A stretch of DNA of 64,000 nt from Thermodesulfobacteriota bacterium (lineage in GTDB: Bacteria > Desulfobacterota_D > UBA1144 > Nemesobacterales > Nemesobacteraceae): assembly GCA_965202785.1 (NCBI GenBank), contig OZ241855.1, forward strand, positions 1,088,001-1,152,000, given 5' to 3'. The translations under genes and the position numbers were made by a program. Position 1 is the first letter of the stretch, and the number at the start of each line of letters is the position of its first letter. A model generated the notes under the pieces. It ran no database searches. It worked only from the letters and a program-made list of their open reading frames with translations, and was not told where the DNA came from. This document shows, piece by piece, positions 1,868 through 63,833 of this stretch.

Positions 1868-1930
1868 TTGATTTTCTCTCATAATAAATTATAGTACAGA
1901 CTGGTTCTTTTTAACCGACTGGTCGTATCT
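1868..1930 (+). promoter_or_regulatory. Putative sigma70 promoter and CGACTGGTCG-type operator-like boxes upstream of adhesin 1
   Basis: TTGATT-16nt-TATAGT, followed by GTACAGACTGGTT and AACCGACTGGTCGTA; similar motifs occur upstream of adhesin 2. Confidence 0.45.
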
Positions 1931-1961
1931 TTATCGGCGTCACCGCGAAGGAGGAAGGTGG

Positions 1962-2039
1962 GTGAAGTCCTTAAGCGAAGTTAACGGAATTTGCGGGCGT
2001 TGTGCCCCGTGCCCCGAAAAATCGGGGGGGGGGGTATGA
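1962..2039 (+). CDS. 25-aa leader ORF through a G11 tract, with its stop overlapping the adhesin ATG
   Basis: AAGGAGG SD then GTG; VKSLSEVNGICGRCAPCPEKSGGGV*; TGA at 2037-2039 overlaps ATG at 2036. Confidence 0.6.
   Translation: MKSLSEVNGICGRCAPCPEKSGGGV
2024..2034 (+). repeat. G11 homopolymer (candidate phase-variation tract)
   Basis: atcGGGGGGGGGGGtATG. Confidence 0.9.
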
Positions 2040-5000
2040 GAACCCGCGGACCGTTTCCGCCGTTTTCTTCCCCGGCCGCATCCTTCGGGGACCGCGGGCG
2101 GCCTGACTCTTCCTACCGGCCCGGGCGGCCGGGTCTTTCGAAATTCTTATCTTTCCCCCCACAGCATTTCGCGGCGGCGCTTCTCGTTCTGCTCGCCCTT
2201 TTTGTGGGCGCGCAGCCTGAAACTGCGCGCGCCCAGTCAAGCGTGCTGGTGAGCAACATCGCTCAGACGGGAGAAGTCGGTATACGTAACGTGGGGAGCG
2301 GCGGAGGCCTTGCCCAGGCTTTCACGACCGGCGACAACGCCGCGGGATACGCCCTGGAAAGCATCCAGGCTGGGGTAATGGCGGCAGAGCACGTAGCCCA
2401 GCTTACAGTAAGCCTCTACTCCGAGAGCTCGGACGTGCCGGGGTCCTCCCTCCAGACCCTGACGAATCCGACCCCGTCTTCGACCGGGGAGCAGACGCTT
2501 GAATTCACGTCGCCCGGGGGAAGGATGCTTGCGGCCAACACGACATATTTCGTGGTCTTCGAATGCGGACACCAAACCTCCTTCTGCGCCAAGATGCGGC
2601 GAACCAGCTCTGACGCGGAAGACGCGGGCGCGGCGTCGGGATGGAGCATAGGCGACGGAGGTCATTCATACAGCGGCACTCGATGGAACTTGTTTACCCA
2701 CGCGATCAGGATCGGGGTGAAGGGCAGCGCTAAGACTGCGGCGGCCAACACCGCGGCCATGGGAACGCCGACGATTTCGGGGACGACGCAGGTGGGAAAA
2801 ACGCTTACGGCGGTTACAACCGGGATTTCAGACACCGACGGGCTGGACACTGTCGCCTGGATGTACCAGTGGATGCGCGTGGACTCGGACGGCACGTCGA
2901 ACCCCGTGAACGTCGGGACTGACTCCGAGACCTATGAGATCCAGTCTGCCGACCTGGGCAAGAGGCTCAAGGTGCGGGTGAGTTTCAGCGACGATGTCGG
3001 CAACCAGGAGACGCTGACCAGCGCCGCGACCGGCACGGTGACGGCACCCGTCCCTGAAATCACCATCGCGCGGCAGGCGGCGTCGGTGACCGAGGGAACC
3101 GCGGCGCGATTCACGGTGAGCGCGTCTCCGGCGCCCGTGGTCAACCTGGACGTGAGCCTTGGCGTCGCCGACGCGGCCGGCCTCGGGGACTTCGTCGCGT
3201 CGGGAGACGAGGGCTCGAAGATGGTTACGATCAGCGCCGGAGCCGCGAGCGCGACCTACAGCGTCCCCACGGTCGGCGACGCCGTGGACGAACCCAACGG
3301 CAGCGTGACGGTCTCTTTAGGTACGGGTACGGGGTACACGCTGGGTACGGCCGCCAGCGCTTCGGTGACTGTGAACGACAACGACGCGGAACCGTCCGTG
3401 AGCGTAACGCGGCCGTCGGTGACTGAGGGGAACATGGGCACGGTGACGCTTGACTTCGTGGTGAGTCTGAGCGGGCTGAGCGCCTATCCCTACCGCTGCA
3501 ACACTCTGGATGAGGACAGCCGGACCACGGCGACGCCCAGCACGGACACCGTGACCGGGGACTACGAGCCGAAGGATGACAATACCCTGTCCTTTCTTAC
3601 ATCCCAGACGCTTACCTTTTCGGTGACGGTGAACGGAGACACCGTGAGCGAGAGGAACGAGAAGGTACTGGTTCGGTGCCGGCGGGGCACCCTGGCCGGC
3701 GTCACGATCTCGGGCACGATCACGGACGACGAACCGATAACGGCGAGCATAACGGCGGGCACTTCCCCGGTAACCGAGGGGACGGCGGCGGAGTTCACGA
3801 TAAAGCTTTCGAAGGGACCGCCTGGCGCGGTCATGGTGAAGTACACGGTAGCGGAGGCTTCAGGCAGCGATTTCGTGGCGACGGTGAATGAAGGGGAAAA
3901 GATGGTTAGCTTCACCGCCGCACCGGGGGACACCAGTCCCCAGAAGACGGTCAACGTCCCCACGGTGAACGACAGGCAGGTAGAGGATCCCGCCGCGGTA
4001 ACGGCGACTCTGGCCGCGGGCACGGGCTACACAGTCGCTTCGGCTCCGAACAACGCCGCTTCCGTAACTGTAAACAGCGAAGACACCAACGCCTCGCCCG
4101 TGATCGGCGGTTCGAGTGCGTTTAGCGTGGATGAGAACGATACCTCCGTGACTAGGATCACCGCCACGGACGCGGATTCGGACGACACGGCAAGGGCGTA
4201 CTCCGTCAGCGGCGGGGCGGACGCGTCGAAGTTCGAGATTTCAAGCTCCGGGGCGCTCGCGTTCAAAACGGCGCCCGACTGGGAGAATCCGACCGACGTT
4301 GCGAGTATGAGTCCCCAGGACGGCGCGGGCAACAACGTGTACGTGGTGACGGTAAGGGTGACGAGCGGGACGGGAGGGCGCTCTCTCTCGACCGACAAGA
4401 CGCTCAAGGTAACGGTGGATGACGTGGATGAGCCGCCGGGGGCGCCGTCGCCGATGATCACGACTTCGACACCGAGAACTCTCGCCGTGGAGTGGACGGC
4501 GCCGACTAACACGGGGCCGGCGATAACGGATTACGGCGTGCGGTACAGGAAAGGGTCAAGCGGCAGTTTCACCGACCATTCCCACAGCGGGACGGGCCTT
4601 ACAACGACTATCACGGGTCTTGATCCGAACTCGAGCTACCAGGTGCAGGTGCGGGCGACCAACGCGGAGGGCAGCAGCGCTTGGGCCTCTGGCCAGGTAA
4701 CGGGCATGACGGCCATGGACCGCCCTCCTGTCCTGACGGTGACGGATACGACACCCTCGGTGGCGGAAAACGAGACTGCCGTGCCGACTACGCTTTCCGC
4801 GGCCGACCCGGACATGGGGGACGGGATAACGGGCTGGAGCCTCGGCGGGGCGGACGCGTCGAAGTTCAGTATCTCAGACTCCGGGGCTCTCACGTTCAGC
4901 CCGGCGCCCGACTACGACAGGCCCGCGGACGTTTCGAGCACGAACCCGCAAAACAATGCGGCCAACAACGAGTACATAGTCACTGTTATCGTGAAAAGCG

Positions 5001-8000
5001 GCGTTACGGGGCGGGAACTCTCCGACAGCGAGACTCTCACGGTGACGGTGACGAACGTGCCCGAGGCGCCGGGAACGCCTTCGCCGACGGTCACGGCCTC
5101 CACCCCCACCACCCTTGATATTGCGTGGGCCAAACCCGCCAACAATGGACCGGAGATCGATGATTACGACGTGAGGTACAAGCTCGCCTCGGCCGACGAC
5201 AGCGCCTTCGTGAACCTTGCGAGCCACGCGGGGACGACCAAGGTGACCACGAGGACGGCGACGATTACGGGTCTTACCCCGAGCATGGAGTACGTGGTGG
5301 AAGTGCGGGCGAGGAACCCGGAGGGGGACGGCGCGTGGGGCTCCGTTACGCGCGCGACGCTTGAGGACAACGCTCCGACCTTCGCCGCCGGAACCCCCAC
5401 GGCATTTACCGTGAATGAGAACGATACCGAGGTGCATGAGTTTGAGGCAAGCGACGGCGACCCCGGGGACATGGTGCTCAGCTACGGGGTCAGCGGGCCT
5501 GACGGGGAGAAGTTCGATATCACTGACCAGGGGGCGCTTACGTTCAAAACGGCGCCCGACTACGAAAATCCGACTGACGATGGGAGGAACAGGGTGTACA
5601 ACGTCACGGTTACGGTGAACAGCGGCGTTACGGGCCGGACGCTCGCCGCGAACCGGCCGATCACCGTCAGGGTGAGGGACGTGGCCGAGGCGCCGGGCGT
5701 TCCGTCGCCGACGGTCACGCAGCGCAGACCCAAGACTCTCACGGTTGCGTGGGATGAGCCCGCGAACACGGGTCCCCCGATAAATGATTACGACGTGCGG
5801 TACAGGAAAGGGAGCGGCGGCGGCTACACCACCCTGACCCACAACGGGACGGCGAGGGAGGCTCTGATCACGGGGCTTGAGAAGGGGACGAGCTACGAGG
5901 TGGAGGTGCGGGCCAGGAGCCTCGAGGGCAGCAGCGACTGGGGTTCCGTGACAGTCGACACGGATGGCTTTGAGATAACGGTGACGGCCGGAGTGGAATC
6001 CCTGGAAGTAAGCTGGCCCGGGGTTACGGGCGGCAATTTCCAGAGGGTAAGGTGGAAGGTGCAAGGCGCGTCAGACCAGACAAGGACTACTGAGATTTTT
6101 TATGACACCACCACCCGTTCCTACACAATCCCCTCCCTGAGTCCTGGCACTGCGTACGAAGTGGAAGTGTCGATCCGCAGAACACCGCCCCTTGTCGTTC
6201 TCGGCGAGGATGTGGCGACGGGGACGCCTCTCTCGCCCCCCGTAGCGGAAAACAACCTGGCCATGGGAACGCCGACGATCACGGGGACCGCGCGGGCCGG
6301 GGAGACGCTTACGGCGGATACCTCAGGGATCATGGACACAGACGGACTTACGCTCGTAAGCTACACGTACCAGTGGCTTCGCGGGGATCCCGGGACATCG
6401 AATCATGCGAACATCTCGGGCGCCTCGGGCTTTCAATACCTGGTAGGGGCCAACGACGTGGGCAAGACGCTCCGTGTTCGCGTAAACTTCACGGACGATC
6501 TCGGAAATCCCGAGACGCTTACAAGCGGTCCGACCGCGACTGTGACTCTCGCGCCCGGGGTGACGGTAGACCCGCCCTCCCTGAACGTGGATGAGGACGG
6601 CGGCATGGGGACTTTCACCGTGGTTCTCAACACGAACCCCGGCGCAAGCGTAACGGTATCCCTCTCTTCCTCCGCCCCGGCGGCGGCACGGGTATCTCAC
6701 TCCCAGCTTATCTTCACCTCCTCTAACTGGAGCAGTCCTCGGACGGTTACCGTGACCGGCGTTGACGACAGCGTCGACAATCCCGGCAACCGGCGCGTAG
6801 CGAAGATTCGGATGACTTACAGCTCGTCAAGCAGTGATTATAGCCAGTCCGCGGTGCAGGACAGGGTGACGGTGAACGTGATTGACGACGAAACCGGCGG
6901 TGGGGGCGGCGGCTCGTCTCCCAACCGCCCGCCGGTCTTCCCGTCAGGTGCCACGGCGCAGACGGCGTATGTGGATCAGGAGTTCATCTACACCGCCCCG
7001 GAGGCGACCGACCCCGATGAGGACCCGATAGACTATGCGGCGGCGCTTCGGGACGGGAGCGCTCTGCCCGGGTGGCTTTCCTTCGACGAAGCGACGCGGA
7101 CATTCTCCGGCACGCCGGAGGCGGGAGACGCTCCCGCCCTTTTTGACATCGAGGTGACGGCCTCTGACGACGGTAGTCCCGCGCTCAGCGCGGCCACCGC
7201 CTTCACCCTTACGGTGGAAGAGTGCAGGGTTTCCGACGTGAGCGGAGAAGACGAGAGCAGCTTGGTGGAATTTGTGGAATGCGCCGCGCGGAGAATCGCG
7301 GCCTCTGACGCTCTGGGGGGGACCCTTGCCCTGCTTGAGCGGTTTCGGGACCCGGAAGGAAACTGGAATGACGGAAGAACCTATCTCGTGTTGCTCACCG
7401 AAGAAGGCGGGGTGTACTTCCACGCGGCCCGGAGGGAGTCTGAAGACCGGGACTGGTCTGCTCTTCCGTGTGCGGAGGGAGGGGGCGTGACTGATATTGA
7501 GGTCGGGGAGGGATGCCCGGTCGGCGGCGGAGGCTACGCTCACCGGTTTTCGGCTTCCCATGTTCCGCTGGCCAACGGAGAGAAGGAGTTTCTGCTGCTG
7601 GGCGGCTTCGGCGGATCTTCTGGAAGGGAAACTCTCTCGGGAGACATAGCAGACCCGTCAACGGAAGCCGGGGATGTGGCGAGCGACGGAGAACTGATGG
7701 AGTTTGTCGAGGACGCTAAAGAGTCTTTAGAGATGGCGATTGGAGATGATGCGGACCCCTCAGGGATTCGGGCGACGCTTCGGGACGGGGAAGGACCGTG
7801 GAAGGCCGGGGAGGTCTACGTCTACATCATGGATGAGGAGACTGGGAGAGTGATATTCGACGGAGGAGACAGGGAGAAGGAACAGACGGAGGCCCTCTAC
7901 AGGCTTGCCGCGCTCGGCAGGGTCGCTCAGTACAGAGAGGGTTCTTCGCTCCTTAGGGGTTACGCCGTCAGGGTGAACGCGGGCGAGGATGAAGCAAGCC

Positions 8001-8236
8001 GCGAGTACGTGGTGGGTTCGGGCTACCTGGGTCCGGGCGGAGGGGGAGAGATGCCGCCGGAAGAAAGACCGCCGGGAGAAGTCGAGGGAGAAGTCGGGGG
8101 AGATGAAAGCGCCGGAGGCGGCTGCGCCGTTGGAGCAGACTCTGGCGGAAGGGTTTTCCCGCTGCTGCTCCTTGGACTCGCGCTTTTTTTCTTGCTGCCC
8201 CTTGGAAGATTCCCGGCGGAAGACGGGGCAGGCTGA
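2036..8236 (+). CDS. Giant surface protein/adhesin: choice-of-anchor-R-like, Calx-beta, 3x(cadherin+FnIII), He_PIG/Ig, tandem Cache-like domains, GGC-CTERM anchor
   Basis: Extended signal peptide ending ARA-Q; LVSNIAQ..AQAFTTG..GYALESI; cadherin (APDYENPTD, VYNVTVTV); FnIII (W..P.NTGP.I.DYDVRY, YEVEVRA); LPGWLSFD...RTFSGTP; C-terminal GGCAVG plus TM helix. ATG 2036 preferred over TTG 1991. Confidence 0.9.
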   Translation: MRTRGPFPPFSSPAASFGDRGRPDSSYRPGRPGLSKFLSFPPQHFAAALLVLLALFVGAQPETARAQSSVLVSNIAQTGEVGIRNVGSGGGLAQAFTTGDNAAGYALESIQAGVMAAEHVAQLTVSLYSESSDVPGSSLQTLTNPTPSSTGEQTLEFTSPGGRMLAANTTYFVVFECGHQTSFCAKMRRTSSDAEDAGAASGWSIGDGGHSYSGTRWNLFTHAIRIGVKGSAKTAAANTAAMGTPTISGTTQVGKTLTAVTTGISDTDGLDTVAWMYQWMRVDSDGTSNPVNVGTDSETYEIQSADLGKRLKVRVSFSDDVGNQETLTSAATGTVTAPVPEITIARQAASVTEGTAARFTVSASPAPVVNLDVSLGVADAAGLGDFVASGDEGSKMVTISAGAASATYSVPTVGDAVDEPNGSVTVSLGTGTGYTLGTAASASVTVNDNDAEPSVSVTRPSVTEGNMGTVTLDFVVSLSGLSAYPYRCNTLDEDSRTTATPSTDTVTGDYEPKDDNTLSFLTSQTLTFSVTVNGDTVSERNEKVLVRCRRGTLAGVTISGTITDDEPITASITAGTSPVTEGTAAEFTIKLSKGPPGAVMVKYTVAEASGSDFVATVNEGEKMVSFTAAPGDTSPQKTVNVPTVNDRQVEDPAAVTATLAAGTGYTVASAPNNAASVTVNSEDTNASPVIGGSSAFSVDENDTSVTRITATDADSDDTARAYSVSGGADASKFEISSSGALAFKTAPDWENPTDVASMSPQDGAGNNVYVVTVRVTSGTGGRSLSTDKTLKVTVDDVDEPPGAPSPMITTSTPRTLAVEWTAPTNTGPAITDYGVRYRKGSSGSFTDHSHSGTGLTTTITGLDPNSSYQVQVRATNAEGSSAWASGQVTGMTAMDRPPVLTVTDTTPSVAENETAVPTTLSAADPDMGDGITGWSLGGADASKFSISDSGALTFSPAPDYDRPADVSSTNPQNNAANNEYIVTVIVKSGVTGRELSDSETLTVTVTNVPEAPGTPSPTVTASTPTTLDIAWAKPANNGPEIDDYDVRYKLASADDSAFVNLASHAGTTKVTTRTATITGLTPSMEYVVEVRARNPEGDGAWGSVTRATLEDNAPTFAAGTPTAFTVNENDTEVHEFEASDGDPGDMVLSYGVSGPDGEKFDITDQGALTFKTAPDYENPTDDGRNRVYNVTVTVNSGVTGRTLAANRPITVRVRDVAEAPGVPSPTVTQRRPKTLTVAWDEPANTGPPINDYDVRYRKGSGGGYTTLTHNGTAREALITGLEKGTSYEVEVRARSLEGSSDWGSVTVDTDGFEITVTAGVESLEVSWPGVTGGNFQRVRWKVQGASDQTRTTEIFYDTTTRSYTIPSLSPGTAYEVEVSIRRTPPLVVLGEDVATGTPLSPPVAENNLAMGTPTITGTARAGETLTADTSGIMDTDGLTLVSYTYQWLRGDPGTSNHANISGASGFQYLVGANDVGKTLRVRVNFTDDLGNPETLTSGPTATVTLAPGVTVDPPSLNVDEDGGMGTFTVVLNTNPGASVTVSLSSSAPAAARVSHSQLIFTSSNWSSPRTVTVTGVDDSVDNPGNRRVAKIRMTYSSSSSDYSQSAVQDRVTVNVIDDETGGGGGGSSPNRPPVFPSGATAQTAYVDQEFIYTAPEATDPDEDPIDYAAALRDGSALPGWLSFDEATRTFSGTPEAGDAPALFDIEVTASDDGSPALSAATAFTLTVEECRVSDVSGEDESSLVEFVECAARRIAASDALGGTLALLERFRDPEGNWNDGRTYLVLLTEEGGVYFHAARRESEDRDWSALPCAEGGGVTDIEVGEGCPVGGGGYAHRFSASHVPLANGEKEFLLLGGFGGSSGRETLSGDIADPSTEAGDVASDGELMEFVEDAKESLEMAIGDDADPSGIRATLRDGEGPWKAGEVYVYIMDEETGRVIFDGGDREKEQTEALYRLAALGRVAQYREGSSLLRGYAVRVNAGEDEASREYVVGSGYLGPGGGGEMPPEERPPGEVEGEVGGDESAGGGCAVGADSGGRVFPLLLLGLALFFLLPLGRFPAEDGAG

Positions 8237-36344: not shown

Positions 36345-36720
36345 GAAAATCGTCTCGGAAACCACCTGTTTTGTTCTCTCACTCGAACTCTCAGACGGTC
36401 ATCGCCACTGGGTTTTTCCAAACGCGGAATGGATGGACAAGAGAGAAAAGGCTATCGGGATCGAGTTTGAAGAAAATGACCTTTGGACCTTTCTCTGTGG
36501 GCAGTGCTACTCGGCGAAAGCTGATTTTTCAGTTTCCGGAAGGTACGTTCCGAGTCACGAAGGACTCTCCAAACTCTCTTTTAATCTCGATGGTTCGCCG
36601 CTACTTTGGGGTAATTACGTTCTGCTCTCTCCCAGTTGGGGACGTCACTCGAAAAAAAAGATGTGGCTTCTAATCCCCTCTTCGGGGCGGGAGCGCGGTC
36701 GGCAATAGGGGGGGGCTATT

Positions 36721-39447
36721 TCAAGTCAGGTCGGAGGGTGCTTGCGTATGGGTTTCTGTTTCCGGGAGCATTTTTACCCGCCCTTTAAATTCCTCGGATC
36801 CGGGATCGTAAAAAATTTCCTTTTCGTTTGCTAAAAACAGTCCTTTCCATAACGCATATCCTTTTCTGTTCATGTGAAGGCCGTCTTCAGTGAACAGCTC
36901 CTCTCTTATATCTCCATTCTCATTTAGCATGTAGTCGTAGACATTCAGATAAAAGGTGTTGGGCTCTCTTGACAGAAACTGCCTTACGAGATCGTTTGAC
37001 GCCTTGATTCTGTCAAGAAAATGGAACCTTACGGGACTCGGTTTTATTGAGACGAAGGTAAATTTCGTATGGGGGTAGGATTCTCTGAAGCGGTAGTAGA
37101 AATCCACAAAGAAATTCAGCACCTGCCTAGGAATACAGCCATCCCCTATGTCGTTATCGCCTGCATAGAAGACTAGGGATTTAACGTCATTAGGCTTTAT
37201 AAGCCGCTCGAAATAGTGCAGGCAGTAGGCTATCCTGGCGCCTCCGAAACCGAGATTCAAGGCGTTGTAATCGGAGAAATCCCTTGCCATGCCCCTCCAG
37301 AGGCGGAAACTTGAACTGCCGTAAAATACCGTCGCGTCATTCTTTTTCCCGACATGACGTCTCTCAAGGATTCTTATGTCCTGTTCAAACAGGTTTTTAT
37401 CGATTGCTGGGAACTCTTTCTCAACCTGCTCAAAGGTTTTTAAATTTATCTTGGTGGATTCCGCCCGTTTTGCGAGTCCTGCTGCCTCTTCCACATATTT
37501 CCTGTACTCGTTTCCGTATTCCCTGACGAACTCAAAGAGCCTGTCTTTGTTCTCTCCCGGATTTTTTACGTGATCGGAGACCCTGAAGGGCTTTTTTATC
37601 ACTAGGGAGAACACGTTCTGGTTTATCCTTTTGTCAAAGTTCGCCACCGCTACGGGAACGATGTAGGGCTCAGGTAAAACGGACGCGGCCAGAAGAAAAG
37701 CACCGAGTTTGAACGGACCGGGAGATTCCTCTGTCGTCATGCTGGTCCCCTCTGGACTTATTACTATGTTAAATCCTTTTCCTAGATGCTCCTTGGCCAT
37801 CTCATAGAACTTTTTCCTCCAAGCTTTTCTCCGCTCGGGGGTTCCTTGGGAGAGATCGGATTCGTCGGTGTAAACATTTATGTGCCCGAGCCTCTCATAG
37901 TAATATTCATGTCCGTATTCTTCCGCCCTTGGAACGCGTACGACGCGGATCCCGGCCTCGCCGTACTTGGCGTAGAGAACCATCGAACTTATGAAGTGGG
38001 AATCGAGCGTAATCTGAAAATGGTTGGGAAGGGTGTTATAGGGATGGTTCAGCAGATGATTGTATATGAAGATGTGTCCCGGCTCATCTGGCAGGTTCTC
38101 CCAGCCTTCAATTACGTAAGGAGTGCTATTGAAGACTCCAGCGAACTGCTTGGCCGCCATGGTTCTTATTTCGCTTGGAGAAAGTGACTTGGGCGCTACG
38201 GTCACGGACTGATAGACATTTTTTAAACCCTCGAAAAAATTGTATTCCTTGTAGATTTTTCCGAGAATATCAAGGCTGAGACGGGACAGTTCCCTCTCAA
38301 GGCTCTCGCCTTCTTTTTCCAGTCTGAACAGAAGCCGGAAAGCGTCATCTAGCGTAAGCGGGCTGTTTAGCAGATGGGGAAGTTTATGAATGGGGGAGTT
38401 TACACTTAGCTGCATGGAGTTTTGCTCGATAAGGTTGCTTATAGCCAGTATTTCTCGCTCGTATCTTTGCGATATTAGCCCCGCGCGGGCATTTCGAAGC
38501 CGGATTGACACCAGCCACAAAAGCCTTCTGGCCAGAGCCAGAGCCGAGTGGGAATCCTGATTCAGGATTTTGTGAAGATTGCGGGAGCTTATGTGATAGA
38601 TAACCGAGTTTCTGCTCGCAACTGCGGTGACATCGTTTGATCCGGCGGGAGCGGCGCCCATCCATCCGACCATGTATCCCGGGAGGTTGATCAGGTGAAG
38701 CGCGGCGGATTCCTCGATCCCTCCCTGCGCCCCGTCGGGAGAGAAGCACAGTGCCGCCTTTCCGTAAGCCAGTATGTCCATTCCTTTTGAGGCATCCCCT
38801 TGGTTGAATATGGGCTCGTTGTTCAGATAGTATTTTTTCTGGGTCGCTTTTGCCAGCTGGCGCAGTGTCTTATCAGGGAAAACCTCGAAAAAAGGAGATT
38901 GCCTCAAAAGCTGAAGCGGGTTGGGTACGGATATGTATTTCCCTTCCTGGGAAAAATCGCCCGTTTTCCCCGTCTCAATGTCCCAGTTGACGTTGTTGTA
39001 TTCTGCAAGCTCGGTTCTGACATGTTTTAGAAGGTTTATGCTTTTGCCGAGAACGAAAAGCAGGAATTCGCATCCCAGAAGGGGTTCCTGGTCAAAGAAT
39101 TTTTCAAGATTCTGGTGACTCCACTTTAGCAGGACGCAGGGCCTCTCGCATGTAATTGTTGTGTAGTAGCGTTTGGGAGAGCGAAAGCCCGACCAGCCTA
39201 CGGGAGTGAATTTTTCGTCGCTTTTTCCTACCGAGAATTCATCGGTTCTGTCTTCGACGCTGATTGAGAAATTCACCAGGCCCTCTACGAGAAAGTAGAA
39301 AGAATGGCTGGGTTCGAACTGCTTGGTGAGAACATAGCGTTCCGGCACTTCTATCAGTTCGCCTATCTTAAGCAGGAAATCGGTCTTGTCTTTCTCGAAA
39401 TTCGAAACGAACGGAAGTTCGCTGAATATCTCTTTTTTTTCCCACAT
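36721..39447 (-). CDS. Fusion protein: 2x cNMP-binding + PlsC-like acyltransferase + SGNH/GDSL hydrolase
   Basis: Two CAP_ED-like domains (VGWSG/VGWMG); IFIYNH and SPEGTS; SGNH blocks FYGSSS, GFGG, YAGDND, DGLH. Confidence 0.8.
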   Translation of the reverse strand: MWEKKEIFSELPFVSNFEKDKTDFLLKIGELIEVPERYVLTKQFEPSHSFYFLVEGLVNFSISVEDRTDEFSVGKSDEKFTPVGWSGFRSPKRYYTTITCERPCVLLKWSHQNLEKFFDQEPLLGCEFLLFVLGKSINLLKHVRTELAEYNNVNWDIETGKTGDFSQEGKYISVPNPLQLLRQSPFFEVFPDKTLRQLAKATQKKYYLNNEPIFNQGDASKGMDILAYGKAALCFSPDGAQGGIEESAALHLINLPGYMVGWMGAAPAGSNDVTAVASRNSVIYHISSRNLHKILNQDSHSALALARRLLWLVSIRLRNARAGLISQRYEREILAISNLIEQNSMQLSVNSPIHKLPHLLNSPLTLDDAFRLLFRLEKEGESLERELSRLSLDILGKIYKEYNFFEGLKNVYQSVTVAPKSLSPSEIRTMAAKQFAGVFNSTPYVIEGWENLPDEPGHIFIYNHLLNHPYNTLPNHFQITLDSHFISSMVLYAKYGEAGIRVVRVPRAEEYGHEYYYERLGHINVYTDESDLSQGTPERRKAWRKKFYEMAKEHLGKGFNIVISPEGTSMTTEESPGPFKLGAFLLAASVLPEPYIVPVAVANFDKRINQNVFSLVIKKPFRVSDHVKNPGENKDRLFEFVREYGNEYRKYVEEAAGLAKRAESTKINLKTFEQVEKEFPAIDKNLFEQDIRILERRHVGKKNDATVFYGSSSFRLWRGMARDFSDYNALNLGFGGARIAYCLHYFERLIKPNDVKSLVFYAGDNDIGDGCIPRQVLNFFVDFYYRFRESYPHTKFTFVSIKPSPVRFHFLDRIKASNDLVRQFLSREPNTFYLNVYDYMLNENGDIREELFTEDGLHMNRKGYALWKGLFLANEKEIFYDPGSEEFKGRVKMLPETETHTQAPSDLT

Positions 39448-57353: not shown

Positions 57354-59156
57354 ATGGCCAAAATCAGAACACTTCCGGATGTACTTGTCTCTAAGATAGC
57401 TGCCGGAGAAATAGTCGAAAGACCCGCCTCCGTAGTAAAAGAACTTCTTGAAAACTCAATTGACGCTGGGGCGACCAGAATATCCATACACCTTGAAGCT
57501 GGAGGTAAACGGCTTGTAAGAGTGGTTGACAACGGCCACGGAATGTCCCGTGACGATGCTCTCATGAGCATTGAACGCCATGCTACGAGCAAAATAAGGG
57601 ATATCGAGGATCTTTTCTCGATAGAGACCCTTGGTTTTCGCGGCGAGGCGCTTCCGAGCATAGCCAGCGTTTCAAGGTTCAGAATGATAACCGTCGCCGA
57701 GGGTTCGAAATCCGGCACCGAAATCTACATTGAAGGCGGAGTAGTAAGGAAGATAAAGGAGACGGCGTCTCCGGTGGGTTCATCAATTGAGGTTAAGAAC
57801 CTGTTTTTCAACACCCCGCCGCGGCTTAAGTTTCTTAGGAAGCCGGAGACCGAGTTTGGCAGGGTTCTTGAGGTTATCCAGCGCGAAGCTCTTTCACGAC
57901 CCGGAGTGTCTTTTGAGGTTTCCTCAGATGGAAGAACCATCCATCGCTACGGCGCAAGCGAGTCGCTTGCCCAACGCGTAACACAGATAATTCCCGGCAC
58001 GTCGCTTTACCCTGTGGACTTTGAAGACGAGACGCTGGCACTGCACGGCTTCCTGGGAAGTCCTCTGGACCCACGCTCCTCGATGCGCAGGCTCTTTACT
58101 TACGTAAATGCAAGACCCGTAAGGGACCGTTTTATAAACAGGGTTATAATGGAATGTTACGGAAGGATGGTTGAAAAGGGGAAATATCCCCAAGGGGCGG
58201 TCTTTATTGAAAGAGATCCCGCCTTGGTGGACGTGAACGTACATCCGACCAAAAGCGAGGTGATGTTCGAGAACCGGTACAAGGTTGGCCAGAGCATCCG
58301 CCGCGCGATAGGCGGCATGCTTGCCGATGCACCCTGGATGAAGGGTTACAGGGAAAGAACCCAGAAGGCTCTTGAAGATTTCTACGAGAAGCAAAAAGAT
58401 CCCGGACTTTCTGAGAACAGGGGTTACTCCACAAAAGGGCCTTCACCAGAAGCAGCTTCCACCCAGGCCGCCCACAAGACTGAGTCGGGGTCTCTACGCC
58501 CTAACAACGGTGACTCCTCTATATCTGAGAAATCTCCAGAGGCCGCAGGAGAGGATATGTTCTCCGAAGGCTTTTATTCAAACCTCAGGTTCCTCGGACA
58601 GGTAGGAAAGCTTTATCTTGTATGCGAGGATCCGGACGGCATCATTCTTATTGATCAGCACGCGGCCCATGAGCGGGTTAACTTCGAGAGGATAAGAAAA
58701 TCCTATCTCCAAGAAGCTTTTTCCTGCTCCCAGAAACTTCTCATCCCCGAAGTCGTCGAACTTACGGTCCGGGAAATCAATGCGGCGCAGCAGTTTGCAG
58801 ACGAAATGGAGAAACTCGGCTTTGATTTCGAAGTTTTCGGGGAAAACGCGGTGAGAGTGAAATCCGTCCCGGGGTTTTTAAGGGACTCCGATTACGCCCG
58901 GGTTTTTGGCGACCTGTTTGATGAGCTTGATGGTCTGGGCGACCCCAAGAGTTTGGAGCAGCATCTTGATGCCGTGTGCGCGACCATGGCGTGCCACAGT
59001 TCAATAACCGCGAACCGAACGCTCTCGGAGCAGGAAGCGCGGACTCTTTTTGCGGATATGGATGCTTCTCAGAATCCGCACGCCTGCCCTCACGGCCGAC
59101 CGGTTGCGACCCGGATATCGTACAATATGCTTGAAAAGATGTTTAAGAGAACTTGA
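57354..59156 (+). CDS. mutL: DNA mismatch repair protein MutL
   Basis: IAAGE.VERP, GFRGEAL, DVNVHP.K, DQHAAHER, CPHGRP. Confidence 0.98.
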   Translation: MAKIRTLPDVLVSKIAAGEIVERPASVVKELLENSIDAGATRISIHLEAGGKRLVRVVDNGHGMSRDDALMSIERHATSKIRDIEDLFSIETLGFRGEALPSIASVSRFRMITVAEGSKSGTEIYIEGGVVRKIKETASPVGSSIEVKNLFFNTPPRLKFLRKPETEFGRVLEVIQREALSRPGVSFEVSSDGRTIHRYGASESLAQRVTQIIPGTSLYPVDFEDETLALHGFLGSPLDPRSSMRRLFTYVNARPVRDRFINRVIMECYGRMVEKGKYPQGAVFIERDPALVDVNVHPTKSEVMFENRYKVGQSIRRAIGGMLADAPWMKGYRERTQKALEDFYEKQKDPGLSENRGYSTKGPSPEAASTQAAHKTESGSLRPNNGDSSISEKSPEAAGEDMFSEGFYSNLRFLGQVGKLYLVCEDPDGIILIDQHAAHERVNFERIRKSYLQEAFSCSQKLLIPEVVELTVREINAAQQFADEMEKLGFDFEVFGENAVRVKSVPGFLRDSDYARVFGDLFDELDGLGDPKSLEQHLDAVCATMACHSSITANRTLSEQEARTLFADMDASQNPHACPHGRPVATRISYNMLEKMFKRT

Positions 59157-59938: not shown

Positions 59939-61582
59939 TTACTTAGTCCCTCTCCGCAACTGATCTGATACTGGGGTAAAACTCCTGGTTTTATGAAAAT
60001 TCTGAGGTAAGAAGCTTTCTACCCCTTGACCTATATGCGCATCCTTTAAAGAGCGTCTTTTAATCAAGAGGGCCCCAAGCAACGCGAACGCCGCGATAAG
60101 CAGTCCGAACGCTCCTCCGCCCGGATCTCCTCCGACGGCGCAGCCTCCTCCGCCGCTGTCACTTCGCTCCGGCTGTTCTTCAACCCTATAGCCGGAACCC
60201 ACTATGTACAGGATGTCTCCATCATCCGAAAGAATCCGCACGGCGTAACCCATTATGAGCAAGGAATCCTCCGTGTATTCTTCGGGTCCATCCACCGCGA
60301 CAAGCCTGTAGCCGGTCTCTGTGTGTTCCTTCTCCCTGTCCCCTCCGTCGAATATCACTCTTCCCATCTCATCCATGATGTAGATGTAGACGTCCCCCTC
60401 TCTCCACGGCTCCATCCTCAGTATCCCCCGCAGCTGCGCGGGGTCCGTATCATCCCCGATGGCTTGCTCAATAAACATTTTGGCCGACCCGACAAAACCC
60501 TTCAGTTCTTCGTCGGTATCCACATCCCCGGCTTCGGGAGTAGGAACTCCGATATTCGGGTCCCCAGGGAAATCACTGCCCCCGGGAGACTCGTCGAAGC
60601 CTCCAAGCAGTATGAACTCTTTCTCTCCATGCGTCAGGGGAAAATGGGAAGAGGTGAACGGATGCGCGTAACCGCTTCTCTCTCCGTCGTACTCAATGAA
60701 GCATCCCTCCGTCTCAAGCACGGACCCCCCTCCTTCACATCTGAGAGCGGACCAGTTGAGGTCTTCTTTCGTCCTGTCTTCGGCGTGGAAGTACACCCCT
60801 CCTTGTCCGGTGAGAAGCACGAGGTAGGTTTCGCCGTCATTCCATCTCTCCTCCCTGAAATCCTCAAGGAGCGAAAGGGTGCCCGCGAAGCCCTCCTTGC
60901 CGGCGATTTCCCCCGCGGCGCACTCAACCACGAATTCCATGAGACTGTCATCGTCATTTTCGCTCACGTCGGAAACCGAACACATCTCTTCCTGCGTTTC
61001 TTCTTCCGGTTCCTGCGGAGCCGACCCGCCGCCTCCGCCACCGCCGCCTCCCGGCCCAGGTCCGGTCGGGCCCGTCGGCTCGTCTTCGTCATCGTCGTCG
61101 GTCACCGTCACCGTCACCACGTCCTCTCCTACCGAAGTGTTGTAATCGTTGTCAGCCGAGAGGACCGTCATCTGGATGGTCGTCATGCGCTCATCGCCGG
61201 GGTTGTCTTCGTCGTCGTTCACACCCCTCACCGTCACCGTCTGCGGTATGTTCCAGTTGCCGGTCGTGAACATAACCTCCCTGATGTTCGTCGGCGGGGT
61301 CGTGCCGTCGAGCGTCACGACCGTCCGGTCGGAGGAGGTGATGTGGAGCCTAACGTCGGCGCTCGGCTGCGTTTTCAGAACAACATTGAACGTCCCCGTG
61401 CCGCCGGCCTCCGCCACCGTCAAAACCATGGGCGTTACCGTGATCCCGGCTGTCGCCACTTGCCCCGTCCCCGTGCCCCGGACGGCGAAGTTATAGGGGT
61501 TCTCGTTCGAGTCGTTGTTATCGATCAAGACCGTGGCCTGCCGCCCCCCTGACCCCGACGGGTCGAATTTCAGGGTGGTCAT
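59939..61582 (-). CDS. C-terminal part of split adhesin 2 (Ig/Calx-like domain, tandem Cache-like domains, GGC-CTERM)
   Basis: Begins mid choice-of-anchor-D repeat; homologous to the adhesin 1 C-terminus. Confidence 0.75.
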   Translation of the reverse strand: MTTLKFDPSGSGGRQATVLIDNNDSNENPYNFAVRGTGTGQVATAGITVTPMVLTVAEAGGTGTFNVVLKTQPSADVRLHITSSDRTVVTLDGTTPPTNIREVMFTTGNWNIPQTVTVRGVNDDEDNPGDERMTTIQMTVLSADNDYNTSVGEDVVTVTVTDDDDEDEPTGPTGPGPGGGGGGGGGSAPQEPEEETQEEMCSVSDVSENDDDSLMEFVVECAAGEIAGKEGFAGTLSLLEDFREERWNDGETYLVLLTGQGGVYFHAEDRTKEDLNWSALRCEGGGSVLETEGCFIEYDGERSGYAHPFTSSHFPLTHGEKEFILLGGFDESPGGSDFPGDPNIGVPTPEAGDVDTDEELKGFVGSAKMFIEQAIGDDTDPAQLRGILRMEPWREGDVYIYIMDEMGRVIFDGGDREKEHTETGYRLVAVDGPEEYTEDSLLIMGYAVRILSDDGDILYIVGSGYRVEEQPERSDSGGGGCAVGGDPGGGAFGLLIAAFALLGALLIKRRSLKDAHIGQGVESFLPQNFHKTRSFTPVSDQLRRGTK

Positions 61583-63344
61583 CCTTAAACATCGTCGAGC
61601 CGCCCGCCGCCACTGACGAAGCGGGCGACATGGTCACCGTGAAATCAGCCGCGTGCGGGCCGCTCACCGATATCCTCGTCAGCGACAGTGCCGCGAGCCC
61701 CGTGTTGCGGATCGTGAAGGTCCGCGTCAGCATGCCGCCTGCCGCCGCCAACGACCCGAAGTTGGTGCCGTCGGCAGTACTCGGAGAAATGTCTTCGTCG
61801 GGGATGCTCATATTCTTGCCCAGGACGTCAATCTCCGGGACGCCCGTGCCCGTGCCCTTGACCGCGAAGGTGTACGGGGTGCGGCTGCCCGTGGTCGCGC
61901 TGGTGGAGCTGTCGAGCCCGTTGTGCGCGATCGACAGCGTGGCCCTGCGCTCCCCCGTCGCCGACGGCTGGAACCGCACCGTGAACCGCCTCAATCCGCT
62001 GGCACTTACCGTCGCCCCCGCCGGCTGCCGCGTTACCGTGAAGTCTCCCGCGTGCCGGCCGCTCACCGCCACCCGGGGATTCCCCGTCAGCCCCAGACTA
62101 TCGCTCCCCGCGTTGAAGATCGTGAAGGTCCGCGTCGTAAAGCTGCCCGGCACCCCGATCGAGCCGAAGTCGGTGTGGTCGGTGTGAGTCGGCGTCGTGT
62201 CGTCGTGCGCGATCCTCCTGTTGTTGCCCTGCAACTCGATTCGCCGGTGCGTCCCTGTGCCCTTGATGGTGAAGTTGTAGGGGTTCTCGTTCGGGTCGTT
62301 GTTCGCGATCGACAGTGTGGCGGCGTGCAGCCCTCGCCTCGACGGGTTGAACCTCACCACGGCCCTCGTAACGCCGCCGGGTTCCACCGTCGCGTCCGGC
62401 TGGGTGATCACCGTGAAGTCTCCCGAGTCCGTGCCGCTCACAGCCACCCGGGGGTTCCCCGTCAGCTCCAGCGTATCCCTCCCCGTGTTGTGGATCAGGT
62501 ACAGCCCTGTGGCATAGCCCGTGCTCGCCTGCCAATCCGCTTCTCCGATGTCCGTGTTGTCGGCGCGCCTCGGCGTCGTGTCGCCGTCTTCGATGCCTAC
62601 GTTGTTGAACTCGACGTACATTTCAGGGGCTGTTCGGCTGATGCGGATTCTTATTGCATTTGAGGACCCGGTCCATTGTGTGTCTGCATTGCTGAGGGAG
62701 GTACGAAGTCCGTCTGCAATGCTCCATCCCGTTATCGCGCCCGCGTCGTGCCCGTTGGAGTTTGTAACAGCCGCGTTGCCGCAGCTGACAATACCGCTGG
62801 AGGTGTTGCAGTCAAGAACCAGGTAATAGACCGTGTTGGCGGTAAGCTGCGTATTATCGGGCGCCGTGAAGCGAAGCGTCGTCGCGGCCGTCGAACTCGG
62901 TCTCTCCGGTAGGGTCAGGTCGGCCACCTTGGCTCCCGGATTGCTCCCGCTTGCGGAGTGAAGCGTTACCGTCAATAAGTTATAGTTTTCGCGATTTATC
63001 CTAGCGAACGCGACCTCGATGCTATCGAGGGTGTAGCCCCCGCCCGCGCCCCCGGTCGTGAAACCCTGAGCTATGGCCGTAAGGTCCACGTTAGTGTTAC
63101 CAGACGCATTCTGATTGATGTTGCTTATCATTACCTGGCGGGCGGAGGCGGCGCCCGGAACCGCGACGAGAGCGGCTATCGCCAGCATGAGGGCGGCCAG
63201 GACGCGGACATGCCGCCCGGCAAAACTATGAAAGCGGGACGGGGGACCCGGGCGGCCGTCCTGCTCCCCGGGCGCCGGCCGTCTCCAGGCCGGAAAACTC
63301 CTTAACCCTGCCGCGAGAAAGGAGAGGAGCCACCAAACCCTCAT
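61518..63344 (-). CDS. N-terminal part of split adhesin 2 (signal peptide, choice-of-anchor-R-like domain, choice-of-anchor-D repeats)
   Basis: MISNINQ..AQGFTTG..GYTLDSI; repeats I.D.DTTP...D.T.FG...TRTFTI.N.G...ENPY.F...G.G. Confidence 0.8.
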   Translation of the reverse strand: MRVWWLLSFLAAGLRSFPAWRRPAPGEQDGRPGPPSRFHSFAGRHVRVLAALMLAIAALVAVPGAASARQVMISNINQNASGNTNVDLTAIAQGFTTGGAGGGYTLDSIEVAFARINRENYNLLTVTLHSASGSNPGAKVADLTLPERPSSTAATTLRFTAPDNTQLTANTVYYLVLDCNTSSGIVSCGNAAVTNSNGHDAGAITGWSIADGLRTSLSNADTQWTGSSNAIRIRISRTAPEMYVEFNNVGIEDGDTTPRRADNTDIGEADWQASTGYATGLYLIHNTGRDTLELTGNPRVAVSGTDSGDFTVITQPDATVEPGGVTRAVVRFNPSRRGLHAATLSIANNDPNENPYNFTIKGTGTHRRIELQGNNRRIAHDDTTPTHTDHTDFGSIGVPGSFTTRTFTIFNAGSDSLGLTGNPRVAVSGRHAGDFTVTRQPAGATVSASGLRRFTVRFQPSATGERRATLSIAHNGLDSSTSATTGSRTPYTFAVKGTGTGVPEIDVLGKNMSIPDEDISPSTADGTNFGSLAAAGGMLTRTFTIRNTGLAALSLTRISVSGPHAADFTVTMSPASSVAAGGSTMFKDDHPEIRPVGVRGAAGHGLDR

Positions 63345-63388
63345 ACCCCCCCCCCCATTTTGCTCATGGAGATATCTGCAAGTTTCAT
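63341..63388 (-). CDS. 15-aa leader ORF through a G11 tract, with its stop overlapping the adhesin 2 ATG
   Basis: AGGGGG SD-like, MKLADISMSKMGGGV*; same GGG GTA TGA junction as at 2024-2039. Confidence 0.6.
   Translation of the reverse strand: MKLADISMSKMGGGV
63346..63356 (-). repeat. G11 homopolymer (C11 on the + strand)
   Basis: aaatGGGGGGGGGGGtATG on the minus strand. Confidence 0.9.
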
Positions 63389-63833
63389 GGTTTAAGCCCC
63401 CTGTTTTTCAGATGATTTAAGTGTAGCGACAAATAGTCGGTACTATATTATTATGTTCGGACCGGTCGTTGTCAATATAAAAGGTCGCGTCATGACGGCT
63501 GACGCGGAAACCGGAACATCCGCCGATGAATTCAGGCATAGAAAAAATCTATGATGCCTCCGGGGGTGGTTGTCCCGGATGACGGGCAATCCTGTCTCAC
63601 GCTTTAGAGGTAACGATATGTAAGTGAATGTGAAGGGGAAAAAGAAAGCCGGAATGGCATTGAAACGGAGAGGATGGGCTTGAGACGACAACAAAAAAAG
63701 GAGCAGGAAAATTCTGCATGGCAAAAACAGTCCGGATTCAGATTTTACAGATGCCCGGAGTTAAGCATGAGAAGCGAGAGCTGCCTGGAAAGGGCAAAAT
63801 CTTGAATGAAGGCTGTCTGGCGTTAATCGCGGC

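What the first reader, a model, noticed from the sequence alone, without database searches (positions are those of the whole stretch)
1948..2039. Poly-G leader-ORF switch coupled to the start of giant adhesin 1
Seen: a strong SD (AAGGAGG) serves a 25-codon leader, not the adhesin. The leader reads through G11 and stops at TGA overlapping the adhesin ATG (GTATGA). Inference: tract length gives three states. G11 gives translational coupling, G12 or G9 gives an in-frame N-terminal fusion, and G10 lets the leader run about 70 nt past the ATG and likely switches the gene off. This differs from classic in-CDS or promoter-spacer slipped-strand phase variation.
Basis: partly seen in the sequence, partly recalled or inferred. 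Interest (0 to 1): 0.85.

Follow-up and report, generated by a model that had tools for sequence, protein, structure and literature searches.

The report
Poly-G frame switch heading adhesin genes
A run of eleven G's sits between a well-served short reading frame and the start of a giant surface-protein gene, and it is most likely a slippage-driven on/off switch of a familiar kind in a slightly unusual layout.

Summary
AAGGAGG (1948-1954) serves a 25-codon GTG frame (1962-2039) that reads through G11 (2024-2034) and stops at a TGA overlapping ATG 2036 of a 2066-aa surface protein. It is not unique. The 1.64-Mb genome (a Ca. Dadabacteria MAG) has seven G/C runs of 9 or more, all exactly 11 and all at exported-protein genes. 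Five are followed by TATGA plus a long frame, one of them at window 63356-63346 (-). At G11 the overlapping stop holds in only 3 of these 5 loci; in 2 the leader overruns the ATG. In congeners, 10 of 14 homologous adhesin genes carry C8-C11 at the same place. In at least two of them no start codon follows the run, so fusion to the upstream start is the only way to make the protein, which is the classical in-frame switch. One decayed run shows leader and body in one frame. Congeners hold dozens of such runs. Switching was not shown: contigs from three runs all carry G11, and no raw reads were available. Coupling at ATGA remains a plausible second route, supported by a sixth cassette where an interrupted G-run is a plain ribosome-binding site. 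This scan found similar switches before on other DNA. Verdict: partly supported, moderate interest.

The parts
1868..1895 (+). sigma-70-like promoter (TTGATT, 16 nt, TATAGT) of the adhesin-1 transcript
   Evidence: 9 of 12 matches; 2 sites found against 0.4 expected. The TATAGTAC-GACT box aligns with the -10 region of the other cassettes. This is a consensus match only.
1948..1954 (+). Shine-Dalgarno AAGGAGG, 7 nt before GTG 1962
   Evidence: The 16S tail ends in CCTCC, and GGAGG is 5.7-fold enriched upstream of starts, mostly at 5-10 nt.
1962..2039 (+). leader ORF of 25 codons, GTG start, reads through the G-run, TGA stop overlaps ATG 2036
2024..2034 (+). G11 homopolymer, a candidate slipped-strand tract that also sits where the SD of ATG 2036 would be
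   Evidence: G11 is confirmed in contigs of runs X1, X2 and X3.
2036..8236 (+). 2066-aa surface protein. It has a 45-aa R/P/G/S-rich N-extension and a signal-peptide h-region at about 2168-2236. A choice-of-anchor R domain covers aa 73-230, followed by FN3, cadherin and He_PIG/Ig repeats. The C-terminus has a Cys/Gly motif, a hydrophobic helix and a basic tail.
1990..2058 (+). predicted RNA helix that pairs the G-run with upstream CCCCGUGCCCC and encloses AUG 2036
   Evidence: whole 141-nt fold -65.1 kcal/mol, z -2.43, 4 of 200 shuffles as good. There is no equivalent in the second cassette (z 0.16), so it is not a conserved feature.
63447..63475 (-). promoter-like site (TTGACA, 17 nt, AATAAT) of the second cassette
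   Evidence: 11 of 12 matches. It is shared by four cassettes.
63341..63388 (-). second leader ORF (ATG 63388, 15 codons, MKLADISMSKMGGGV), TGA 63343-63341 overlaps ATG 63344
63346..63356 (-). second G11 run (C11 on the + strand), followed by TATGA
61518..63344 (-). 608-aa paralogous surface protein (choice-of-anchor R and choice-of-anchor D / HYDIN-type Ig domains)

Best explanation
The G11 run is a slipped-strand (contingency) tract acting on translation of a surface adhesin. It belongs to a genus-wide repertoire of G/C10-12 runs in these Ca. Dadabacteria. Transcription starts about 120 nt upstream. Ribosomes load mainly at the AAGGAGG-served GTG 1962. The run length sets the frame in which they leave the run. 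With G12 or G9 they read straight into the adhesin frame and make the full pre-protein with a longer N-terminal region. This is the classical ON configuration, and the only possible one in several homologs of congeners. With the assembled G11 they stop at the UGA overlapping AUG 2036. The adhesin can then be made only from that AUG, either by reinitiation or by direct loading on the G-run as a weak SD, which probably gives a lower or alternative level. With G10 they overrun the AUG and stop 68 nt later, which is the most repressed state. Shown here: the anatomy, the frame relations, the repetition at 5 loci, the homologous C-runs in relatives, and the existence of out-of-frame and in-frame runs in this genome. 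Inferred: that the run length changes within populations, and the expression level of each state.
For: (1) There are seven G/C11 runs and none of 9, 10 or 12+ in 1.64 Mb, and all seven lie at exported-protein genes. Five are G11-TATGA loci (four choice-of-anchor R adhesins and a 408-aa protein with a signal peptide). One is a lipoprotein with C11 in frame. One is a lipoprotein split mid-gene by C11. (2) Homologs were found in 9 of 35 congeners, at 14 loci. Ten of the 14 have C8-C11 between an upstream start and the signal peptide; the other four have C6, C5 or none. The run at this position is therefore evolutionarily labile. (3) In L015 and L017 the signal-peptide frame has no ATG/GTG/TTG after the run. 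The only start is an upstream ATG in another frame, SD-served in L015. (4) L016 is over 90% identical in DNA to the leaders of L022/L024/L028/L030 but has a decayed run (CTCTCCCCCA). There the leader frame MPDFTLSSGCDIPGRAMDS... runs on into the post-tract frame and the signal peptide. (5) G027 has 27 runs, 24 of 10 and 3 of 11, in mixed states by my reading. About 5 are obligate-fusion loci out of frame, about 5 are in frame, 5 lie at an RBS or 5'UTR, and the rest are intergenic or unclear. (6) The organism uses canonical SDs, so the SD-served leader start is very likely used. (7) Published precedent: Bifidobacterium breve pilin genes are split by a G-run that is annotated G11 but measured as G11 about 37% and G12 about 60% in culture (PMC9187656, passages read).
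Against: No length heterogeneity was seen. Only assembled contigs could be laid, and all carry G11, including a 3.4% diverged strain from another host. All seven runs of the genome are exactly 11, which is odd for hypermutable tracts unless 11 is the mutational mode. MutS and MutL are present, unlike in Campylobacter or Helicobacter (recalled). No G000-type cassette with a fused leader was found: 0 of 35 congeners with cassette DNA, one chance hit in metagenome contigs, and no extended homolog among 9 protein hits. An ATG abuts the run at 5 of 5 loci. A sixth cassette uses an interrupted G-run (GGGAGGAGGGGG) as a plain SD for a cytoplasmic Rieske oxygenase, with the uORF stopping upstream. The AUG after the run may therefore be the principal start rather than a leak.
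Confidence: 0.6

Rival explanations
1. AUG 2036 is the true adhesin start and G11 is the main ON state. Ribosomes finishing the leader at UGA reinitiate at the overlapping AUG, helped by the G-run as an SD and by melting of the hairpin. G12/G9 gives a fusion and G10 an overrun that shuts the gene off.
For: TATGA follows the run at 5 of 5 loci, including the otherwise diverged gene 1. The 408-aa protein has a canonical signal peptide starting at that ATG. The sixth cassette shows that the same position is a working RBS plus start. A G10 run directly abuts the start in G027 at L110 (G10-AA-ATG) and lies 7 nt before it at L090. The consensus is G11 everywhere, including a diverged strain. A hairpin is predicted to enclose the AUG of gene 1.
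Against: At G11 only 3 of 5 loci are in the coupled state, and 2 are in the overrun state. Four of the five cassettes are recent copies, so the conservation amounts to one or two independent observations. The hairpin is absent from cassette 2. Apart from these five loci, GGGGG is hardly used as an SD (21 of 1232 starts against 1.3% background). Homologs in congeners need the fusion.
Confidence: 0.25
2. The run is not a switch. It is a fixed, G-rich ribosome-binding element of AUG 2036 held at 11, and the upstream short frame is a relic or an ordinary regulatory uORF.
For: The length is identical at 7 of 7 runs and in three sequencing runs. The mismatch-repair genes are intact. The sixth cassette has an SD in place of the run.
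Against: Two of the seven G/C11 runs lie inside lipoprotein genes, where an RBS role is impossible, and one of them breaks the frame. Run length at the homologous position ranges from 5 to 11 among congeners. Congeners carry dozens of runs in many contexts.
Confidence: 0.08
3. The fusion is made without any DNA change, by -1 ribosomal frameshifting on G GGG GGG or by RNA-polymerase slippage on the run, giving a fixed ratio of leader peptide to extended adhesin.
For: The run is a perfect X XXY YYZ site in the leader frame. A 10-bp GC-rich inverted repeat (2043-2052 / 2089-2098) starts 9 nt after it. The length is uniform at 11.
Against: Two loci would need +1 and three would need -1. No conserved downstream structure exists in cassette 2. 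Polymerase slippage is documented mainly for A/T runs (PMC3711429, passage read).
Confidence: 0.05
4. The run length is an assembly or sequencing artefact, and the frames are really continuous.
For: Homopolymers are error-prone, and the published B. breve reference length was not the majority length (PMC9187656, passages read).
Against: Independent contigs of three runs give G11 at this locus, one run showing an Illumina adaptor. A/T runs of the genome show a natural decay.
Confidence: 0.02

Closest known systems
Homopolymeric-tract contingency loci in the leader/signal-peptide coding region of surface proteins: Bifidobacterium breve UCC2003 pilin genes bbr_0113 and bbr_1889 (PMC9187656, passages read), and Neisseria pilC poly-G (recalled, not read here)
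   Same: A G10-12 run lies between an SD-served start and the body of an exported adhesin-type protein. The reference sequence shows two ORFs. Several loci occur per genome. The organism is host-associated.
   Different: Here a start codon abuts the run and overlaps the leader stop, and the run itself lies in SD position. In B. breve the authors argue that the second ORF has no SD and is not initiated. Here the signal peptide lies after the run, not before it. Switching has not been measured.
Translational coupling by overlapping stop and start codons (AUGA/UGAUG) in operons, as treated in PMC3711429 (passages read)
   Same: The stop of an upstream frame overlaps the start of the downstream frame, and the downstream start has only a weak SD of its own.
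   Different: The upstream frame is a 15-25-codon leader, not a gene. The overlap depends on the length of a mutable run and holds at only 3 of 5 loci.
Helicobacter pylori tlpB-hp0102 leader G-repeat targeted by the sRNA RepG (PMC8295292, abstract and passages read)
   Same: A variable G-run in an mRNA leader tunes expression of surface-related genes after transcription. Expression is graded rather than purely on/off.
   Different: That repeat acts through an antisense C/U-rich sRNA loop and is not translated. No sRNA partner was sought here, and the run here lies inside a translated uORF and abuts the start codon.
Mycobacterium tuberculosis espR 5'UTR 7G tract (PMC11898584, passages read)
   Same: A homopolymer in a 5'UTR changes translation efficiency through RNA folding around the RBS.
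   Different: That tract lies 144 nt upstream at the transcription start and involves no frame logic.
Haemophilus influenzae lic1 CAAT-repeat switch with alternative start codons in different frames (recalled, not read here)
   Same: More than two expression states arise because two of the three frames reach a usable start.
   Different: It uses a tetranucleotide repeat downstream of all starts. Here one start lies before the run and one after it.

Membership tests
Slipped-strand homopolymer contingency locus, translational type | Homopolymer far longer than base composition predicts | tested here: met
   G/C runs number 385, 45, 4, 0, 0 for lengths 6-10, then 7 of length 11; 5 hits against 0 in the control.
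Slipped-strand homopolymer contingency locus, translational type | The run lies between a functional start and the body of the ORF, so +/-1 changes the frame | tested here: met
   for all 5 loci. Caveat: a second start follows the run.
Slipped-strand homopolymer contingency locus, translational type | Run length differs among cells, strains or homologs, with in-frame and out-of-frame lengths | tested here: inconclusive
   Homologs in congeners have lengths 5, 6, 8, 9, 10 and 11. G000 has one in-frame and one frame-breaking C11. This locus itself is G11 in X1, X2 and X3, from contigs only.
Slipped-strand homopolymer contingency locus, translational type | The fused (in-frame) configuration is a real coding sequence | tested here: inconclusive
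   Met for the G027/G034 subfamily (L016) and required in L015 and L017. No fused G000-type cassette was found.
Slipped-strand homopolymer contingency locus, translational type | The product is surface-exposed or secreted | tested here: met
   Signal peptide, choice-of-anchor R, FN3, cadherin and Ig domains, and a C-terminal sorting-like tail.
Translational coupling (termination-reinitiation at AUGA) | Stop of the upstream frame overlaps or abuts the downstream start | tested here: inconclusive
   Met at gene 1 and in 3 of 5 loci at G11; in 2 of 5 the leader overruns.
Translational coupling (termination-reinitiation at AUGA) | The downstream start is masked or weak unless the upstream frame is translated | tested here: inconclusive
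   A hairpin is predicted for gene 1 (z -2.43) but none for cassette 2 (z 0.16).
Translational coupling (termination-reinitiation at AUGA) | Downstream output depends on upstream translation | not testable with these tools
   This needs reporters.
Promoter-spacer or transcription-start homopolymer switches (Bordetella fim, Neisseria porA/opc, Treponema pallidum tpr; recalled) | The run lies between -35 and -10 or at the transcription start | tested here: not met
   The promoter-like sites end at 1895 and 63447, which puts the runs about 130 and 90 nt downstream, behind an SD-served frame.
sRNA-targeted leader G-repeat (RepG type) | A C/U-rich sRNA pairs with the repeat | not tested
   No search for a partner RNA was made.

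The most novel reading that the evidence does not exclude
A hypermutable G-run does two jobs at once. It is the ribosome-binding site of the adhesin AUG and also the 3' end of a strongly translated uORF. Single-base slippage then cycles each of five surface-protein genes through three heritable translation states: a fusion, stop-start coupling at AUGA, and an overrun that occludes the start. Two leader phases (32 and 34 nt before the run) set different genes to different states at the same modal length of 11. This would be a population-level rheostat for symbiont surface proteins rather than a binary switch.
Probability: 0.25. Interest if true: 0.7.

Novelty: new variant of a known kind. Interest (0 to 1): 0.42.

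Why it matters
Phase-variable surface proteins are best known from pathogens. Here an uncultured, apparently host-associated lineage (Ca. Dadabacteria) carries from seven to dozens of G/C10-12 runs per genome. These concentrate on adhesin-like proteins with eukaryote-like FN3 and cadherin repeats, even though mismatch repair is intact. If the runs do slip, symbiont populations inside one host would be mosaics of surface types, which bears on how such symbionts avoid uptake or recognition by the host. The layout, with a start codon abutting the run and overlapping the leader stop, would add a graded third state to the usual on/off logic if it proves functional. It is easy to test with reporters. 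For annotation, gene callers will mis-start or split these genes.

Tried and rejected
- Read-level tract lengths could not be obtained. All runs served were Logan contigs, so no length distribution exists. Contig breaks at 2024/2045/2053/2074 are explained by a second co-occurring variant that shares 2024-2074 and diverges from 2075 (records 6 and 14), not by run-length bubbles.
- No RNA holder was listed.
- The metagenome pattern scan for cassette variants with any run length found one contig. It is a chance match (G8 then AG) in unrelated DNA.
- A cassette DNA search found nothing in 35 congeners.
- A protein search with the first 240 residues of the 608-aa paralog gave 9 hits including the query, none with a G000-type leader.
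- An orthologous adhesin beside homoserine dehydrogenase was absent in 48 of 48 relatives with enough flank. Five of 53 loci were too short to judge.
- No flanking inverted repeats of note were found, so an invertible element is unlikely.
- Loss of mismatch repair as the cause of the runs is rejected, because MutS and MutL are present.
- The alignment-based locus search failed because the alignment had no conserved stretch.
- dN/dS on the leaders was not attempted because there are too few sites.
- Supplementary tables of PMC9187656 were not seen.

Full report
**What is there.** The window is G000:C1:1088001-1152000 of a single-contig 1.64-Mb genome with 50.6% G+C. At the finding's coordinates the sequence reads as follows:
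- AAGGAGG at 1948-1954
- GTG at 1962
- G11 at 2024-2034
- T, then ATG at 2036-2038, with TGA at 2037-2039

The ORF listing gives a 25-aa GTG frame at 1962..2039 and a long frame to 8236. From ATG 2036 the product has 2066 residues:
- a 45-residue R/P/G/S-rich stretch
- a signal-peptide core (HFAAALLVLLALFVGAQPETARA)
- a choice-of-anchor R domain (NF041539, residues 73-230, E 1.5e-26)
- FN3, cadherin, He_PIG and other Ig-like repeats
- a C-terminal Gly/Cys motif followed by a hydrophobic helix

**It is a repeated module.** The window holds a second copy on the minus strand. ATG 63388 opens a 15-codon frame through G11 (63356-63346) to a TGA overlapping ATG 63344 of a 608-aa paralog.

Genome-wide, G/C runs number 385, 45, 4, 0, 0 for lengths 6 to 10, and then seven runs are exactly 11. 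Five of the seven are followed by TATGAG and a long frame:
- the four choice-of-anchor R paralogs of the genome, which are all four that it has
- an unrelated 408-aa protein whose canonical signal peptide (MRVWRLLLICIGITVIILIANEVKA) begins at that ATG

Four of these loci share one cassette running from a TTGACA/AATAAT promoter to about ten codons into the gene. Gene 1 shares only the core AAAAT(C)-G11-TATGAG and the -10 box.

The other two runs are C11 on the coding strand of lipoprotein genes. One is in frame near the 5' end. One lies mid-gene and splits the gene into frames of 233 and 175 codons. All seven runs thus sit at exported-protein genes, and this genome holds both an in-frame and a frame-breaking run.

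**Frame logic.** The distance from leader start to main ATG is 74 nt in gene 1, 44 nt in two cassettes and 46 nt in the other two. At G11 no leader is in frame with its gene.
- In three loci, including gene 1, the leader stops at the TGA overlapping the ATG. Fusion needs G12 or G9.
- In two loci the leader overruns the ATG and stops at +98. Fusion needs G10 or G13, and G12 would give the overlap.

The "coupled" arrangement is not a conserved property of the module.

**Who it is, and what relatives show.** Homoserine dehydrogenase next door finds 53 loci, mostly titled Ca. Dadabacteria or Thermodesulfobacteriota MAGs. A sponge-metagenome run holds a relative's copy of that flank (X5).

The adhesin is not beside this gene in 48 of 48 relatives with enough flank, so it is accessory.

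Homologs of the N-domain occur in 9 of 35 congeners, at 14 loci.
- Ten of the 14 carry C8 to C11 on the coding strand, between an upstream start and the signal peptide.
- The other four have C6, C5 or no run.
- In L015 and L017 the signal-peptide frame has no ATG, GTG or TTG after the run. The only start is an ATG in another frame upstream, SD-served in L015. These genes can be expressed only after a one-base change of the run.
- L016 aligns at over 90% identity with the leaders of four C10 paralogs but has a decayed run (CTCTCCCCCA). There the leader frame (MPDFTLSSGCDIPGRAMDS...) continues into the post-run frame and the signal peptide.

This is the classical in-CDS frame switch, and it is the ancestral or usual state of this gene family.

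Congeners are full of such runs. G027 has 27, of which 24 are of length 10 and 3 of length 11. By my reading:
- about five are obligate-fusion loci out of frame
- about five are in frame
- five lie at an RBS or in a 5'UTR, including G10-AA-ATG at L110 and a uORF-plus-own-start layout at L112
- about ten are intergenic or unclear

G020 mixes lengths 10 and 11, and G028 mixes 11, 12 and 16 (that listing was truncated).

- A sixth copy of the cassette (genome 1267203-1267301, minus strand) drives a cytoplasmic Rieske/KshA-like oxygenase. Its uORF ends at a TAG before the G-rich stretch. The stretch is GGGAGGAGGGGG, a good SD six or so bases before the GTG start. The position of the run is therefore an RBS in at least one cassette.
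- The ATG after the run can be a genuine start, as the 408-aa protein also suggests.
- The 16S tail is CCTCC. GGAGG is 5.7-fold enriched before starts, while GGGGG is barely enriched outside these five loci. The G-run is thus at best a weak SD, and the leader's SD is the stronger loading site.
- A stable helix is predicted to enclose the run and the AUG of gene 1 (z -2.43), but nothing comparable is predicted in the second cassette (z 0.16).

**Does the run vary?** This could not be tested at read level. Three runs hold the locus, all as assembled contigs.
- X1 and X2 are probably the source material. One shows an Illumina adaptor, and both carry G11 at depth 24-36.
- X3 comes from another host and has 13 mismatches in 384 nt, at depth 2. 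It also carries G11: its 16 gap letters are fully accounted for by a 13-nt deletion at 1762 and a GGC insertion at 1887.

The consensus is therefore stable, and assembly error is unlikely.

Together with "all seven are 11", this is the main evidence against a free-running switch. It is also what a large population at mutational equilibrium would give, since the mode is the same at every locus. It fits the sharply peaked but species-specific lengths in congeners.

Mismatch repair is present. Searches for cassette variants elsewhere found nothing usable.

**Verdict.** The best reading, at 0.6, is a classical translational contingency locus. Its strong start is the leader's. The AUG that abuts the run gives a second, probably weaker route in the non-fused frames.

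It is cheap to test. The other rivals are a fixed RBS element (0.08), recoding on the run (0.05) and an artefact (0.02).

**Known comparisons.**
- The closest published case I read is the G-run that splits Bifidobacterium breve pilin genes. It is annotated as G11 but was measured as a G11/G12 mixture (PMC9187656, passages).
- Leader G-repeats acting after transcription are known from H. pylori RepG/tlpB (PMC8295292, abstract and passages) and from M. tuberculosis espR (PMC11898584, passages).
- Stop-start coupling is standard (PMC3711429, passages).
- Searches for a run-dependent uORF/start overlap gave no such case. "Phase variation, homopolymeric, translational coupling" returned 4 papers. 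[quoted passage not shown] returned 1 unrelated paper. A third search returned 7 papers. The library lacks most subscription journals.
- Earlier notes of this scan list several poly-G/C runs between a start and the signal peptide of giant surface proteins in other uncultured bacteria. The general kind is therefore recurrent, and only the ATGA/RBS layout and the Dadabacteria setting are new here.

Noticed in passing
whole genome G000 (window 2024-2034 and 63346-63356 among them): All seven G/C runs of 9 or more are exactly 11, with none of 9, 10 or 12+. Congeners show equally sharp but different modes: G027 has 24 of length 10 and 3 of 11, G020 has 10-11, and G028 has 11-12 and one 16. This could be a mutational equilibrium length, but it is unexplained.
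   Followed up: partly
window 2019-2039 and 63341-63361; loci L014, L015, L022-L030, L105-L108: The runs share flanks. G000 has AAAAT(N)-G11-TA on the coding strand. Many runs of congeners have the reverse complement, TA-C(n)-(N)ATTTT, on their coding strand. The run-plus-flank unit is thus inverted relative to the gene in G000.
   Followed up: partly
G000:C1:1267171-1267326 (-), locus L089 1469-1624: A sixth copy of the promoter/uORF cassette has the G-run interrupted (GGGAGGAGGGGG), and it serves as the SD for a Rieske/KshA_C oxygenase. It is either a stabilised derivative or the ancestor of the G11 cassettes.
   Followed up: partly
G000:C1:503938-503948 and 1338588-1338598 (outside the window): Two lipoprotein genes carry C11 runs. 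One is in frame before the lipobox. The other is split mid-gene into frames of 233 and 175 codons.
   Followed up: partly
window 2036-2170; proteins P0003, P0004, P0005: Choice-of-anchor R proteins from several sources have 45-170-residue R/P/G/S-rich stretches ahead of the signal peptide. These are either a real long n-region or systematic over-extension of gene calls.
   Followed up: no
window 2046-2069 (+): A terminator-like hairpin (GCGGA-CCGTT-TCCGC followed by CGTTTTCTTC) lies 10 nt after ATG 2036, within reach of a ribosome stopping at the leader UGA. It is weak: 5 pairs, with 2 sites found against 0.9 expected.
   Followed up: no
window 2024-2118, runs X1 and X2: A second co-occurring variant shares the run and the first 39 nt of the gene exactly, then diverges from 2075 (contig records 6 and 14). 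The same 5' module appears to sit on another gene body in a second strain.
   Followed up: no
loci L038, L040, L052, L054 (flank of homoserine dehydrogenase in relatives): The spot that holds adhesin 1 in G000 holds other G/C9-12 runs and other genes in 4 of 48 relatives. It appears to be a variable site for run-bearing accessory genes.
   Followed up: partly
G000:C1 leaders at 13453 and 358685 (loci L087, L088): These two cassettes are nearly identical in their flanks (4 differences in about 115 nt). They differ at 5 of the first 15 leader bases, including the ATG/GTG start itself.
   Followed up: no
window 36708-36715 (+): A G8 run lies just 3' of the stop of the 908-aa minus-strand frame 36721..39447.
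   Followed up: no
window 57354-59156 (+): The MutL homolog (PF01119 match at genome 1146002-1146322) lies in this window. MutS is at genome 709092-709649.
   Followed up: partly
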